64,000 nt of DNA from Candidatus Bathyarchaeia archaeon. Its GTDB lineage: Archaea > Thermoproteota > Bathyarchaeia > TCS64. Location of the stretch: contig JBEKDF010000009.1 in assembly GCA_050014495.1 (NCBI GenBank), forward strand, positions 1 to 64,000, in the 5' to 3' direction. Positions 3,001 through 12,000 of the stretch are shown here, one piece after another (within the stretch, counting starts at the first letter, position 1; each line of letters begins with the position of its first letter). A program made the position numbers.

Positions 3001-6000
3001 TTGTTCCATCAACTCATCGACTACGCGCTCACTTGATGCTCTTCCTGTGAGCCCAGTCAAGGTAACACTTTCTACAAGTTGGGTGAAAGCTCTTCTTTTT
3101 TCTATAGCTCCTATAGTATTACGTATCTGCACAAATTCTGGTACTTGTTTTTTATAAGAATAATATTCTTCTACCGATTTTGAAGTTTCATCATTCCAAT
3201 GTATTATTTTCTTTATAGTTAATTTATCGTCTTGAATATATGATCTAAATTCATCTATCTCTTTATTTGTAAAATTATTAAATTCAATTTCAATTTCTAT
3301 AGGCTCTTCAGCATTACCATTATAGAAATCATCTATTTTTGTATTTGCTTCTGGTGTATAAAAATTATTTATCGCTTGAAGTATTGATGATTTTCCACTA
3401 TTATTTCTTCCTATGAATATTACTATATTTTTGAACAAAGTTGACACGTTTTTTAACGAACGGTAATTTTTTATTATAATTTTTTCAATTTTCATCTTAA
3501 TTGAAGGGCTATTCAATCCATTTTTAAATTTTATGTAATAAAAGAGTCAGTTTCCAATATATTAGCTAAGAATTGTGCGTAAAGTTTTCCAGCTTTTTAT
3601 GATTTAATCTGTATGGCTGTCGGATCGATCATTCGAATTAAATTAGAAGAATAGGATAAGATCAGTGCCTCAAACCCAAACCACTACTCTCCCCTACTCT
3701 GCCCCATTCTCCTAGCTACTCTCTCTCCCCTCCCCACCCCCTTACACAACAAACAAACACACGCGAACGAAGAACTTTTAGATGGGCTGGCTTCAAATAA
3801 TCAAACTCAGCTCTATACAATATCCATTAATAGAAGTGAATTAAATTTTATTTGCAATTTTTCGTGCTAAATTGTTAAAAGTATTTTGAGTGATATTAAA
3901 AGAGATTCTTGGGGCTGACTTGTGAGGAAGATTTGAATTGAATTACATTGGTGAGTTTGTCGACGAAATAAGATCTCGTAAATTACATTTTCAATCAATT
4001 TTAGGCTTAACTAAAGATCGAAGTAGGCTGGAGGAGACCCTAAGAGAGGGCATCATGGACCACTGGTCAATTCTTCCTGATCGAGCTTTTTGTTTTAGTC
4101 GTGAATTTGCTGTTGACAGCAGTAGCGCGATGAGGAGTCTCTCGAATGGCATTGAACTCTACATCACGCGGAGCATGATGATAGGTAACGATGGGTCCAG
4201 AAGAAAAGGCGTAAAGTTTGAAATGATAAAAGCCCCACCCGCAGCCATGATTTCCCTAAATTTCGAAAGAATGCTTAGGGATTTGATCGAAGTTGAAGCA
4301 GTACTCAATAATGTTGAGAGTTTAAAGGATGGAGACATCGTTCTCGTGGATGGTAATCTGTACGGTCGTCTCACTCACCTCGTGGAAGAGCTCCCTCTAG
4401 AGAATTGGCGTCACCTTCCTTTGCTTATCTTCGAGAGACTTCAGAACCTCTTCATCAAATGCAGAGAAAAGAAGGTGATGCTAGTAGGCGTCTCTAAATT
4501 CAGCCGCACACGTGTACTGTGTAGCGCCCTTCTCAATGAAAAGGGCGTAAACATTACTGATCCCTTGTTCCTTGATACCGAGATAATAAATAGGTTCAAA
4601 CAGGGCGTTCCCGGTCACTCAACCCCGCTTCTCTTGGGCGAGTACGCTCTCGAGCGGGCTGAGGAGATGAGAATCGACCCGGAGAGCTACAGAAAACGGT
4701 ATTTTAGGAACATTCCGGAGTCACAGGTTGAATGGGCGGTTAAGACGATCCGCGGAGTATCTGAAGCCCCCGCTATTGCCATGTTCCACATGACGCCTAC
4801 CTTAGGGGAGCAGCCACTTAGGGTCGACATACCCGCTAGCTGCCTCGGGATCGACGCCAAGATAATGGATGTAAGACCCTACAAGTTCGTCGATCCATCT
4901 ATTGTCGAACCCGTCGTGAAGCAGCTGCTCTCAGGGTATGGAGGACGGGAGGTCTACAACGCCCTCCTCTGGGCAACCGATCATGAGGTTCGTCTGGGTG
5001 AGGAGGCTGTCGACACCATCTACAGGCAGGTCATAGGTGATGAGCTGGGGATCCAGGTTGAGTACGATAGGAGTTCTAGGAGGTTCCATGGATGAGTGCG
5101 AGAAAAGTAGGTTACATCGCCGGAGAGGTTGAGACCGGAAGCTTCTGGTTTGTAAGCGACTTAGAGGACTTTCCTCCCAGACACGAGTATCTAATAATCC
5201 CGCATGTTAGAGAGCGCAGCAGCTCCGGGTTCAAAGATGTTGAGGTACTTGCCCAGGTCAGTAGAATAGCGAACTACTCAGACATCTTGGGTGAGCGCCT
5301 CAGTCTTCAAGAGCTTGAAACCATAATCAGCCGCTACAGTGGAAATACCAAGGTCTACGGCGAGGCGAGTATCCTCGGCTACATGAGCGAGAGCGGCGAG
5401 GTGTTGATGCCACGCAGCGCAGCCATCCCAGGGCAGGAGGTATTCGTAGCCCCCACGGAGACACTGGAGCGCTTCTTCGCCCGAGACGTCAAGTCTGGGA
5501 TACCAATAGGTAATCTGATTACACGTGATGAGGTGAGAGTAGTAATCGACCCGAACGGCTTCAGGAGACACGTTGCAATAATTGCCCAGACGGGCGCCGG
5601 CAAGAGCTATCTCGTTGGCTTGATGCTTGAGCGCCTCCTTCCCCTCGGTGCAACGATAATCGTCTTCGACCCCAACAGCGACTACGTGATGATGAGGAGA
5701 GATTCGGGTGGGAACCCAACAAAGATAGCAGATGACGTGGTAATATATCGCCCCCCAGGAATATCGGGCAGACGCCACTCGGATGAGGAGATCGGCGGCT
5801 CGGAGAGCTACACCATTGACTTCAGTTCCCTCGGCTCCGAGGGAATCCAGGACGTCGCCGGCATCTCCTCACAGTGGACCCACATAATAAAGGCCATAGA
5901 ATCTGCCCTTCAAGGCCTACAGGGCTATTACGAGCCAAGGCAGCTAATTGAAGCGCTGACGAATCTGAGCAACGATGACCAATATCCCGAACAGCGAGCA

Positions 6001-9000: not shown

Positions 9001-12000
9001 AAACCTAAAGGCCGACGTGGAACGCGCCAGGGAAGCTGAACAGGCAGCAGAAAAACACCTATCAGCCCTCAAGGGCTCGGAGGAAAAACTCGGTGAATTG
9101 GAAAAGAGTTCCTCTGAACTAAATAGAAGTAAAGCGAAGGCAGCGCAAACAAGGATCATCGGTATAGTAATGGCGATAACAGGCGTTGTGATAGCAGTTG
9201 CTGCTATAATCATTCCTATAATAGCGGTAATTGGAGTACCCCTAGTCTTAGCCGGGGCAGTGCTATTCCTGAGGAACAGCACCTCGAAATTCGACTCAGG
9301 TATTTCGAGCCTCCAAGTGGAGAGAAACGCTCTGCTGGGCGATCAGCAGCGAATCGGTGACTATACCGAGTCATTTGAGAAGGCGCAGGCCTCAGAAAAA
9401 GTTGGTCTTGATGAACTTGGCAAAAGTGAACGAGAGTTAAGTGAAAAGCTCAGCACTCTGCCTACTAGACCAAGAGACTACGCATCAGTCGTAAAAAGCG
9501 ATGGCGATTTTTCCGCTTTAAGGAGTCAGGTCACCGAGGACCTCCAAATGCTAACTCGACTAAAAACTGAGATGGAAAAAGCGAATGAAATCTCAGCAGA
9601 GCTTGACGAGCGATTAGTAGCACTGGAAACCTTGAAAGAAGAATCCAGTGGCTATGAATTAGGATTAGATTCCATCCAGGAGAAGATAAACAAATACAAT
9701 GAATCCGGCGTAGAGGCATTAAAAGAAAAACAGATCAAAGAAGAAAGGGATGAGGCCAACGAAAATCTAACTCGTATTATCGAGGAGATCCGCGGGAAAA
9801 GGGAAACCGCATCAAAAATACAAAACATCGAGGCCGAGTTAAAACAAAGTCAAGAAGCTAATCAAACCGCAACCGCTGAATTAACCAATCTGGAAGCTGA
9901 ACGTGAACGCACCCTTGCTGAGAGCGGCGCAGATCCTAAAGATGAGGAAGAACTTGAGAGAGAAGACGAAGAGCTGATGAAACGCTGCTCGAGTCTCGAA
10001 ACCGAACAGGAGATCATGACAAAGCAGATAGACGAATCCTTCGAAACCATGGAGAACAATAAGCAACTACGTGAAGAGCATCCCTTACTCGAATCAAGAT
10101 ACACCACAGAGAAATTCGAGTTGGATGCGATGACTAGAGCCATAAAACTACTCGACATCACACGCGACAGTATCATGTCCGGGGTGAAAAAGAGCGTCGA
10201 GGCGCACATGGCCCAGTTCCTCCCGACTCTCACCGAGAACCGGTACAACATGGCGAGAATAGATGAAGAAGAGTACCAGATCGAAGCTTACGATAGGGAA
10301 GCGAAGACATGGAGGAGAAAGGGCGTCTTCAGCGGCGGAACACAGGATCAGTTCAGCCTGGCCCTGCGCCTCGCCTTTGCACTCAGTACAATACCGGAGA
10401 CCCGCGGTGCACGCCCAGGCTTCATCTTCCTCGATGAGCCATTAAGCAGCTTCGATTCGCAGCGCCGAGAGGGTTTCATAAACTTGTTAAAGAACGAGTT
10501 GAGCCAAAGCTTTCCCCAGATAATAGTCATAAGCCACATAGAGCAGCTACAGGAGGAGTTTCCAAACCTCATTCAACTCGACTCGGGAAGAGTAATATAG
10601 TCCTCGCAAATACAGGACGCGCGCGCGCAAATCTAAGAATGGCGATATTAGACTGGAGAAAACTCAGAAACATGGTTTCAACGACATTACAACCCTTCAT
10701 GCTAGAATTTCCCCTCCTTCAGATCCAATTATGAGTGGCACAGATGTAGTTCTAAAAGGCGTAACTGACAAAGATATTGAAGAAGCAAAAAAACTATTTC
10801 TCCGATTCTCTAGCGAGAAAACACTTGAAAAAACCCAATACGGGGAGCTACTAAGTAAAACCGGTAAAATTGGTTTAATCTATATAAATGGAGTAAAAGT
10901 AGCGGAGGAGGAGAATTTCCTCTTCAGTTATAACATTATCTCATTAACCAATGCAATAAGAAAGGCTCTAAACCGGGAAAGGACAAATGTCGGGCGCACC
11001 GCTTATTCCTCTCGTATTAAAAACATCCTACTCTCCTGCAAAGAAGGACACGTTGCAGAGTTTCTAATGAAGGACCTTCAGGAATACTCGTCGGGGTTGA
11101 TGCATGATGAATTAAAATGGATCGACATTCAGGAGCATGCAGTAAAGATTCTAAACACAGAGGGAAAACATGTCTTTCTAACCTCTTCAGAGATAATGAG
11201 CCATGGAAATATTGTAAATGAAGCAAGGGACATGGGTTATAAAATAATAACGATTCCTGAAAGTTTGAGGGATAAAATTCAGGGAGAACAGGATCTTCAC
11301 GGAAAACCAATCGTGGACGTCTTGCAGTTTAGCGACGATTACAATAAGAGTTTTAAATTCAAATTTATTGAAATATCCGAACTGAATAATAATGAAAAAC
11401 ATATTTTTGAGTTGAGAAATAAAATCTTCAACTTAATTGGAGGCCGTCCCAGACAAATTATTGATATTAAAATCTCTGAAACTATGCGGAAGAACTTCAT
11501 GGGTGAAGACGACACTGATGGTGTATGGGAAAATGGAGTGATTATTCTCAAGAGAAATCAGCTTCGATCATTAGATTATTTCTCGGCGACCCTTCTTCAC
11601 GAAACAGCGCACGCTATCAGCGGTGCTCCTGATTCTTCGCGGCTCTTTGAACAGACACTTAGTGAAATATTAGGTCGTGTGACAGTTCAAGCCCTAAAGT
11701 GAAGCGATTTTTCATGTACCTATATCGGCCAAAAAAAAGTATTCAAATTCAAGGTTCGATTTCTTTAGATTCTCCAGCGGAACTTTGTACCTCATTTTAG
11801 AGCAGGAGATTGCTGAAAATACTTCGACAGTCTCGCCTGAGAGAACTTGATTATAAGAAGATTCGTAGTAACCTTGTTTTCTGACTCAGCAACTAAACAA
11901 GCTAGACAACGAACACACCAAAACACCGACAAACCCAACATAAGAAGCAGAACCGACACCGAAAAACACCAAAAACAAGCCGCGGCACCACCCCAAAACC

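What a model noticed while it worked through the whole genome (the two positions that open the first line are those of the whole stretch)
3938..10600. Two unrelated NurA-HerA-Mre11-Rad50 operons: the second is the one that replaced the resident operon in situ in a sister [...]
The genome holds two complete double-strand-break resection operons whose subunits share only 27-31 percent identity: the resident one (C2:92203-98407, Rad50 686 aa) and a second (C9:3938-10600, Rad50 920 aa) beside an OLD nuclease and a WYL gene. In a sister genus the C9-type operon occupies the housekeeping locus of the resident type (beside M50 protease-dnaG-gap-tyrS) and the two types exclude each other, so this genome shows the two-copy stage of a whole-operon displacement of a core repair machine.
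Evidence so far: Identities from all-vs-all blastp. Mre11 searches over 71 family genomes: resident type in 11/17 congeners, most other genera and 5/32 of genus g12; C9 type in 26/32 of g12 and only G000 and G056 elsewhere; no g12 genome has both. 4 of 4 fetched g12 C9-type loci are full four-gene operons next to M50-dnaG-gap, the neighbours of the resident type in G033 and G063. PADLOC Old 7e-50 for g01115.
(Added by a program. Inside this text positions count along the whole contig: contig position 1 is position 1 of the stretch shown here. "Call 12" and the like, gene names such as g00115 and contig names such as C1 are that model's own, and its searches are not shown. The text may have been shortened before it was handed on; [...] marks where a part breaks off. 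The agent that wrote the report below was given it as the finding of a first reader that could run no searches.)

Follow-up and report, generated by a model that had tools for sequence, protein, structure and literature searches.

The report
Membrane-hairpin repair operon displaces zinc-hook operon
This archaeon carries a second, unrelated set of DNA-break repair genes whose Rad50 has a predicted membrane anchor where the zinc hook should be, and in a sister genus a related set has replaced the normal set between the same two neighbouring genes, which suggests that the two designs can do the same job.

Summary
Both nurA-herA-mre11-rad50 operons are real and share 26-31% identity. The resident Rad50 (type A) has a central CPKC zinc hook. 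The window's Rad50 (type B) has no CxxC and carries a hydrophobic helical hairpin at the arm tip (aa 437-479). Across fetched loci, 41 of 41 A-type Rad50s have the hook; 36 of 36 B-type ones have the hairpin. All 32 genomes of sister genus g12 carry exactly one type (27 B, 5 A). B fills A's interval, between a 67-aa gene and the SRP RNA, but inverted and with no remnant of A. A is ancestral in the order, so A was replaced by B, most simply once. This genome's copy is neither donor nor descendant of the g12 operon. It is a cousin on a tRNA-Gln island and appears to be under purifying selection. So it resembles the two-copy stage but is not that event. The hairpin type also occurs in cultured Thermofilaceae. 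Membrane insertion is predicted, not shown. Earlier scan notes already describe the hairpin Rad50; the in-place swap is the addition here.

The parts
3938..5095 (+). nurA, type B (385 aa)
   Evidence: Pfam NurA 1.9e-12; acidic and His motifs at aa 58, 137, 347
5092..6687 (+). herA, type B (531 aa)
   Evidence: Pfam DUF87 4e-33; Walker A aa 165, Walker B aa 377; 62-66% to g12 type B
6681..7856 (+). mre11, type B (391 aa)
   Evidence: Metallophos 1.7e-11; nuclease motifs at aa 12, 57, 92, 170, 205
7838..10600 (+). rad50, type B (920 aa): no CxxC hook
   Evidence: AAA_23, AAA_27, SbcC Walker B; Walker A, Q-loop, signature, Walker B and H-loop intact, no C..C; best fold match Mre11-Rad50-Nbs1 7zr1
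9146..9274 (+). Hydrophobic helical hairpin at the coiled-coil apex (Rad50 aa 437-479), predicted membrane anchor in place of the zinc hook
   Evidence: Kyte-Doolittle 19-mer 3.0; AlphaFold helix 414-457, turn, helix 460-479; conserved at about 0.47-0.51 of length in P0001-P0104
1237..1554 (+). WYL-domain gene (island neighbour)
   Evidence: Pfam WYL 1.2e-5
1558..3516 (-). OLD-family ATPase-TOPRIM nuclease, divergent from nurA; GC3 0.27
10731..11702 (+). 323-aa MPN635_N-like gene downstream of rad50; GC3 0.38; not found beside type B in other loci
12064..12576 (-). DDE transposase fragment
   Evidence: DDE_Tnp_1 4.9e-16
12982..12998 (.). 17-bp copy of the tRNA-Gln 3' end (att site) bounding an inner integrated element, 12982-25250
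   Evidence: exact repeat
16790..17728 (+). Tyrosine integrase of the inner element
23882..25267 (+). Second tyrosine integrase, overlapping the tRNA 3' end
25234..25309 (-). tRNA-Gln(TTG), the integration site; window 1-25233 is missing at this site in congeners

Best explanation
The window holds an intact, mobile nurA-herA-mre11-rad50 cassette of a hookless type. Its Rad50 ends in a two-helix hydrophobic hairpin instead of the zinc hook. Inferred working: Mre11-Rad50 binds and opens DNA ends, and HerA-NurA resects them, as in other archaea. The two Rad50 arm tips insert in the membrane and pair there, doing the hook's job and tethering the complex to the membrane. Type B cassettes move among Bathyarchaeia: they land in islands (G000, beside tRNA-Gln), often decay (G061, G011), and once, in an ancestor of most of genus g12, one landed beside the resident hook-type operon in the opposite orientation, after which the resident operon was deleted. 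Shown: gene content, motifs, hook/hairpin exclusion, same-interval inverted placement, mutual exclusion in g12, tree positions. Inferred: membrane insertion, apex pairing, a single replacement, insertion-then-deletion, and that G000's copy is expressed and redundant.
For: Hook in 41 of 41 A or A-like and hairpin without hook in 36 of 36 B or B-like full-length Rad50s from fetched loci. Among 327 full-length Rad50-like proteins: 232 hairpin only, 88 hook only, 0 both, 7 neither (kin are not independent). AlphaFold hairpin at the apex. 32 of 32 g12 genomes have one type only. In 15 of 15 B loci measured, B lies 85-127 bp from the 67-aa gene and 37-69 bp from the SRP RNA match, and 24 of 24 loci lack remnants of the other type. 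A occurs in the order's other families (f2 1/1, f3 6/6, f4 1/1) and has both flanks in G082 of f3. g12-A is sister to g1-A (98). B-type g12 is one clade in EF-2 (96) and in the C20 RpoA/B+EF-2 tree (81). HerA and Mre11 trees split A from B at 100, so the genes moved together. B cassettes lie in unrelated neighbourhoods in L181, L183, L190. A second strain (run X11) has the operon at about 92% identity; 21 of 26 changed rad50 codons listed are synonymous. The four genes are essential in S. islandicus and could not be deleted in T. kodakarensis (PMC13748450, passages), so B probably does this job where it is alone.
Against: No test of membrane insertion or apex pairing was made; hydropathy and a model with pTM 0.41 are predictions. 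RpoA/B alone under LG+G4 nests the A-type genomes inside the B-type ones, though B monophyly is not rejected (AU p=0.095; 0.40 with EF-2 and flanks). Support for one event is therefore modest. G000-to-g12 identities are similar for B (HerA 62-66%) and A (63-67%), which also fits an old shared copy. Most genomes are incomplete MAGs; among those at least 90% complete and at most 5% contaminated there are only 8 in g12. No genome with both operons side by side was found. Closed f58 genomes also carry a separate hook-bearing SMC-like gene of about 800 aa, which could supply a hook function.
Confidence: 0.66

Rival explanations
1. Long coexistence: the common ancestor of genera g1 and g12 already had both operons. 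G000 kept both, most of g1 lost B, and g12 lineages lost one or the other. This would make G000 a true relic of the two-copy stage.
For: G000's B, with the G061 fragment, is sister to all g12 B when only family genomes are in the tree, matching g1 as sister to g12. A and B identities between G000 and g12 are similar. RpoA/B nests A among B.
Against: With metagenome proteins added, several other non-g12 B clades appear at the same depth, and G000 groups with P0002/P0033. G000's copy sits on a tRNA-Gln island missing in congeners and has lower GC3 (0.53-0.63) than A (0.71-0.76). B-type Mre11 is found in only 1 of 17 congeners, and that copy derives from g12.
Confidence: 0.17
2. The swap is real, but the apex hairpin is a soluble hydrophobic dimer interface (a buried four-helix bundle), not a membrane anchor.
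For: Some g12 hairpins are only moderately hydrophobic (KD 1.76-2.0). The apex tolerates other dimerisers: a review reports hook-for-hinge substitutions with small effects (PMC7752040, passages).
Against: Two helices of about 20 residues flanked by basic residues (R437, R479), with hydrophobicity but not sequence conserved. The analogous SbcE central domain is insoluble and SbcE gathers at cell poles (PMC2811018, passages).
Confidence: 0.2
3. In G000 the B operon is not a spare repair machine but an island-borne system that degrades or processes foreign DNA entering at the membrane.
For: Neighbours are OLD, WYL, an MPN635-like gene, a transposase and an integrated element. SbcE acts in competence. 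A review states that bacterial NurA-HerA acts against viral DNA.
Against: It is the only such operon found in 27 g12 genomes, and it holds the only Mre11 match in 4 of 4 closed f58 genomes. NurA and Mre11 have no PADLOC hit. OLD and WYL do not accompany B elsewhere. This reading can hold alongside the best explanation.
Confidence: 0.15
4. Binning or assembly artefact: the B operon comes from another organism.
For: The MAG has 7.5% contamination; the operon is near a contig end; tetranucleotide fit is at the 20th percentile.
Against: Cbf5 on the same contig is single-copy and 86-94% identical in 7 of 8 congeners searched. Depth is even from rad50 through the tRNA to cbf5 in runs X5 and X7, neither flagged as a possible source, although no single piece spans the stretch.
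Confidence: 0.04

Closest known systems
Archaeal nurA-herA-mre11-rad50 resection operon (Sulfolobales, Thermococcales; PMC13748450)
   Same: Same four genes in one operon; catalytic motifs intact; best fold match is Mre11-Rad50.
   Different: Rad50 lacks the CxxC hook and has a hydrophobic hairpin; all hits are far below the NCBIfam equivalog cut-offs; present as a second, island-borne copy.
Bacillus subtilis SbcE (YhaN) with SbcF (YhaO) (PMC2811018)
   Same: SbcC-like ATPase without CxxC, hydrophobic central domain, Mre11-like partner, role in break repair.
   Different: Described for Gram-positive bacteria beside SbcC; the passages I saw do not call it transmembrane and do not mention archaea or NurA/HerA. 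Common descent of the apex was not shown here.
Hairpin Rad50 of Thermofilum/Infirmifilum, Ca. Caldarchaeum, Njordarchaeia, Anaerolineae and Dictyoglomaceae (names)
   Same: Same hookless hairpin architecture, often in the full four-gene operon. HerA and Mre11 of such operons fall in one clade with type B.
   Different: Mre11 of this wider group is only about 26-34% identical to type B. Noted only in earlier unchecked scan notes; I found no paper.
Gene or operon displacement in situ (concept recalled; the term appears in the listing, no paper read)
   Same: A foreign equivalent takes the resident's chromosomal position.
   Different: Here a whole four-gene core repair operon of different architecture is swapped, in inverted orientation.

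Membership tests
Archaeal NurA-HerA-Mre11-Rad50 operon | Four genes adjacent and co-oriented | tested here: met
Archaeal NurA-HerA-Mre11-Rad50 operon | Intact nuclease and ATPase motifs in all four proteins | tested here: met
   (motif definitions recalled)
Archaeal NurA-HerA-Mre11-Rad50 operon | 5'-3' end resection activity | not testable with these tools
   needs biochemistry
Canonical Rad50/SbcC | Split ABC ATPase head with long antiparallel coiled coil | tested here: met
Canonical Rad50/SbcC | Central CxxC zinc hook | tested here: not met
   no C..C in 920 aa; 0 of 36 B-type
SbcE/YhaN | No CxxC; hydrophobic central domain with a conserved proline | tested here: met
   hairpin aa 437-479 with prolines at the turn and in helix 2; only G449, G466, G473 are invariant there, so the proline is not strictly conserved
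SbcE/YhaN | Sequence membership of the YhaN family | tested here: inconclusive
   AAA_27 32 bits, over cut-off but weaker than AAA_23; a YhaN-labelled protein aligns only at the C-terminal head; B. subtilis SbcE not compared
ASRP/coalescin | Zinc hook and ASRP model score | tested here: not met
   NF045487 58.6 bits against cut-off 300; ASRPs mostly have a hook (PMC9389158)
Lamassu or HerA anti-phage systems | LmuA/LmuC or Sir2/DUF4297 partner genes | tested here: not met
   only generic LmuB and HerA hits; NurA, Mre11 and the downstream gene have no PADLOC hit; anti-phage HerA models far below cut-off
Displacement in situ | Non-orthologous unit in the ancestral position, resident absent | tested here: met
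   genus g12; not the case in G000 itself

The most novel reading that the evidence does not exclude
Archaea run two interchangeable designs of the core break-resection machine, a soluble zinc-hook one and a membrane-tethered hairpin one. The hairpin operon travels as a mobile four-gene cassette that can take over the housekeeping locus and evict the hook type, and such swaps have recurred across the class (families f17 and f18 hold both types; G276 has both). The zinc hook would then be dispensable in nature, replaceable by lipid-embedded pairing of the arm tips, with break repair done at the membrane.
Probability: 0.45. Interest if true: 0.85.

Novelty: new variant of a known kind. Interest (0 to 1): 0.7.

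Why it matters
A review calls the Rad50 zinc hook absolutely conserved (PMC7752040), and the four genes are essential in two model archaea (PMC13748450). A natural, clean exchange of a hook-type operon for a hookless one between the same two genes is comparative evidence that the hook's job can be done another way. It gives matched pairs of close relatives for asking what the hook is for. Cultured Thermofilaceae carry the hairpin type, so membrane tethering can be tested directly.

Tried and rejected
Structure prediction of an apex dimer was not available, so apex pairing is untested. No RNA holder was listed. The genome-contig scan with one B-like protein gave only 3 loci. The viral-contig scan gave one weak hit, so no viral carrier was found. 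The metagenome scan gave 37 loci, 12 of them B or B-like; I annotated those 12 and L194, and none held both operons. Cluster look-ups gave no host names for the non-g12 B clades. The sigma-70 promoter scan is not suited to archaea and was not used. My first reading that A-type g12 genomes were nested among B-type ones did not survive AU tests or added markers. G056 as a second witness of the same stage was rejected. A recognisable att site left of the operon was not found with up to 2 mismatches. Look-ups of earlier findings by place and by sequence were blank. Literature: nine searches listed no paper on an archaeal hairpin Rad50 or on this swap; the library lacks most subscription papers, I read passages of five papers only, and no supplements.
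Full report
Observation. The window has four overlapping genes, nurA 3938-5095, herA 5092-6687, mre11 6681-7856 and rad50 7838-10600, with intact catalytic motifs (motif definitions recalled). A second operon lies at C2:92203-98407. The two share 26% (NurA), 31% (HerA), 27% (Mre11) and 29% over 133 aa (Rad50). I call the C2 operon type A and the window's operon type B. Close homologues are named Candidatus Bathyarchaeota; runs that hold the stretch are mostly peat metagenomes.

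What differs. Rad50-A has CPKC at aa 344 of 686. Rad50-B has no CxxC and a strongly hydrophobic stretch at aa 437-479 of 920. AlphaFold places it as a helix-turn-helix at the tip of the coiled coil (helices 414-457 and 460-479; mean pLDDT 80.7, pTM 0.41). The best fold match is Mre11-Rad50-Nbs1. The feature is conserved near mid-length in P0001-P0104. Of full-length Rad50s from the loci in my tree set, 41 of 41 A or A-like have the hook with mid-region hydropathy at most 1.37, and 36 of 36 B or B-like lack it with hydropathy at least 1.76 (partial genes left out). Among 327 full-length Rad50-like proteins from three searches, 232 have the hairpin only, 88 the hook only, none both, 7 neither. 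These are kin, so the counts describe clades, not independent events.

Distribution. Tight type B Mre11 is found in 26 of 32 g12 genomes, G056 and G000, among 401 class genomes searched. Type A is found in 31 of 70 family genomes, including 11 of 17 congeners and 5 of 32 g12, and in the order's other families (1/1, 6/6, 1/1). HerA gives exactly one match in 31 of 32 g12 genomes, 26 B and 5 A; G052 is B by Mre11 and Rad50. So g12 is 27 B and 5 A, none with both. A more distant B-like tier occurs in other families (for example f26 28/59, f15 4/4). I fetched 20 of these 44 loci; 16 hold one full-length Rad50 ORF, all 16 with the hairpin and no hook, and the other four are cut off, split or lack the gene in the stretch. 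At phylum level, 22 of 301 genomes match; 18 of the 19 loci fetched show the hairpin, the other being truncated. Relatives named Thermofilum adornatum, T. pendens and Infirmifilum species have it too. Four of four closed f58 genomes have one Mre11 match, in this operon, but also a separate hook-bearing SMC-like gene.

The locus. In G000, G063, G056, G033 and G022 the order is 67-aa gene, rad50-mre11-herA-nurA (minus strand), SRP RNA, then M50, dnaG, gap, tyrS. In g12 B genomes the order is 67-aa gene, nurA-herA-mre11-rad50 (plus strand), SRP RNA, M50. Same interval, opposite orientation. 26 of 27 B genomes show one or both flanks; G045's contig ends first. In the 15 B loci measured, the gaps are 85-127 bp and 37-69 bp, and none of 24 A or B loci has a remnant of the other type. 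G082, in another family, has A between the same two flanks. Because the operons are unrelated and inverted, recombination through the operon itself cannot explain the swap; insertion beside A followed by loss of A is my inference.

Direction and number of events. A is ancestral: it spans the order, and g12-A is sister to g1-A, as the species tree predicts. HerA and Mre11 trees each split A and A-like from B and B-like at aLRT 100 (the tool warns of long branches in the HerA tree), so all genes moved together. RpoA/B under LG+G4 nests the A-type g12 genomes among B-type ones, but does not reject B monophyly (AU p=0.095, 28 of 40 genomes used). EF-2 makes the 5 A genomes sister to 25 B genomes (96), and the concatenation with flanking genes is unresolved (p=0.40). 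RpoA/B+EF-2 under C20 gives B monophyly at 81 (19 genomes). One replacement is the simplest reading, not a proven one.

What G000's copy is. It lies outside the g12-B clade (99) and groups with P0002 and P0033 in the Rad50 head tree, beside other non-g12 B clades. Intact B cassettes sit in unrelated neighbourhoods in L181, L183 and L190; G061 and G011 hold only rad50 fragments. G056 has mre11 and rad50 on a 3.5-kb contig at 33% GC, like its host, nested in g12; grouping it with G000 is rejected. In G000 the operon lies left of a 17-bp att repeat (12982-12998) that bounds an integrase-bearing element at tRNA-Gln. In G057 and G065 the DNA just past that tRNA continues into genes that G000 has on contig C6, and G063 and G064 reach them after a few other ORFs; G066 has other genes there. 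So window 1-25233 is an insert, whose left end is beyond the contig. The contig belongs to the genome: cbf5 is single-copy and 86-94% identical in 7 of 8 congeners, and depth is even across the stretch in runs X5 and X7. Run X11 has rad50-B on a 12.5-kb contig with 243 differences in 2,899 bases, at depth 34.7 against 32.4 for its cbf5 contig, with no cover of the inner element. Of the 29 listed differences past base 7862 (the tool showed 40 rows and hid 254), 23 are at third positions, giving 21 synonymous and 5 changed codons.

How it probably works. From the known pathway (PMC13748450, passages), Mre11-Rad50 engages a break and HerA-NurA resects it. I infer that the hairpins of a Rad50 dimer sit in the membrane and pair there, replacing the hook and holding the heads an arm's length from the membrane. 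Since B is the only such operon found in 27 g12 genomes, it probably performs the housekeeping role. In G000 it is an extra copy; a role against incoming DNA is possible but unsupported.

Prior knowledge. The nearest described protein is B. subtilis SbcE, hookless with a hydrophobic, insoluble central domain (PMC2811018, passages). A review treats the hook as absolutely conserved yet replaceable by other dimerisers (PMC7752040, passages). PMC9389158 and PMC11381338 (passages) do not describe this form. Nine searches listed nothing on it. At least six earlier notes of this scan describe the hairpin Rad50 in other genomes; they are unchecked and I found the feature before reading them. None of those shown mentions an in-place swap.

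Verdict. Real; a new variant of a known system. The displacement claim holds for g12; the claim that this copy is the replacing one does not. Interest 0.70.

Noticed in passing
window 12982-25250: Integrated element at tRNA-Gln with a 17-bp att repeat, two tyrosine integrases, a Cas4-like nuclease (21934-22671), a PIN-like gene (23575-23880) and a 638-aa gene (19361-21277) with no Pfam, NCBIfam or PHROG hit; not covered in run X11.
   Followed up: partly
window 19372-19424 and 20811-20863: 53-nt inverted repeat (83%) lying inside both ends of the 638-aa ORF; unexplained.
   Followed up: no
G000 C20:18015-18090 and 19646-19662: The other tRNA-Gln also has a 17-bp copy of its 3' end about 1.6 kb away.
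   Followed up: no
G423 C1:911-915 kb (L257): Closed genome with the hairpin operon plus a second Mre11-Rad50 pair whose 758-aa Rad50 has neither hook nor hairpin.
   Followed up: partly
G276 C1 and C30 (L106, L178): A family f17 genome with both a hairpin-type operon and a hook-type Rad50; f17 and f18 hold both types across genomes.
   Followed up: partly
L263, L264, L269: Closed f58 genomes carry a conserved hook-bearing SMC-like gene of about 800 aa with no Mre11 neighbour within 1.5 kb.
   Followed up: no
G065, G054, G068, G060: No strong match to either operon type with these queries, though G065 is 92% complete in about 30 contigs; possible loss or a third type.
   Followed up: no
G038 and G040 (L044, L045): B-type Rad50 shortened to 789 aa with the hairpin still central.
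   Followed up: no
G018, G019, G021 (genus g11): Their hook-type Rad50 (777 aa) and Mre11 belong to the distant A-like group, not the family's type A: possibly another displacement.
   Followed up: partly
L031:2706-2906 (G000 C2:91205-91408): Conserved 67-aa cysteine-rich gene flanking the operon locus across the order; no NCBIfam hit.
   Followed up: no
window 39464-62759: Large cluster of fumarase, malic enzyme, heterodisulfide-reductase-like and hydrogenase-associated genes.
   Followed up: no
window 10731-11702: MPN635_N-like protein with a C-terminal HExxH motif, similar to phage and bacterial clusters.
   Followed up: partly
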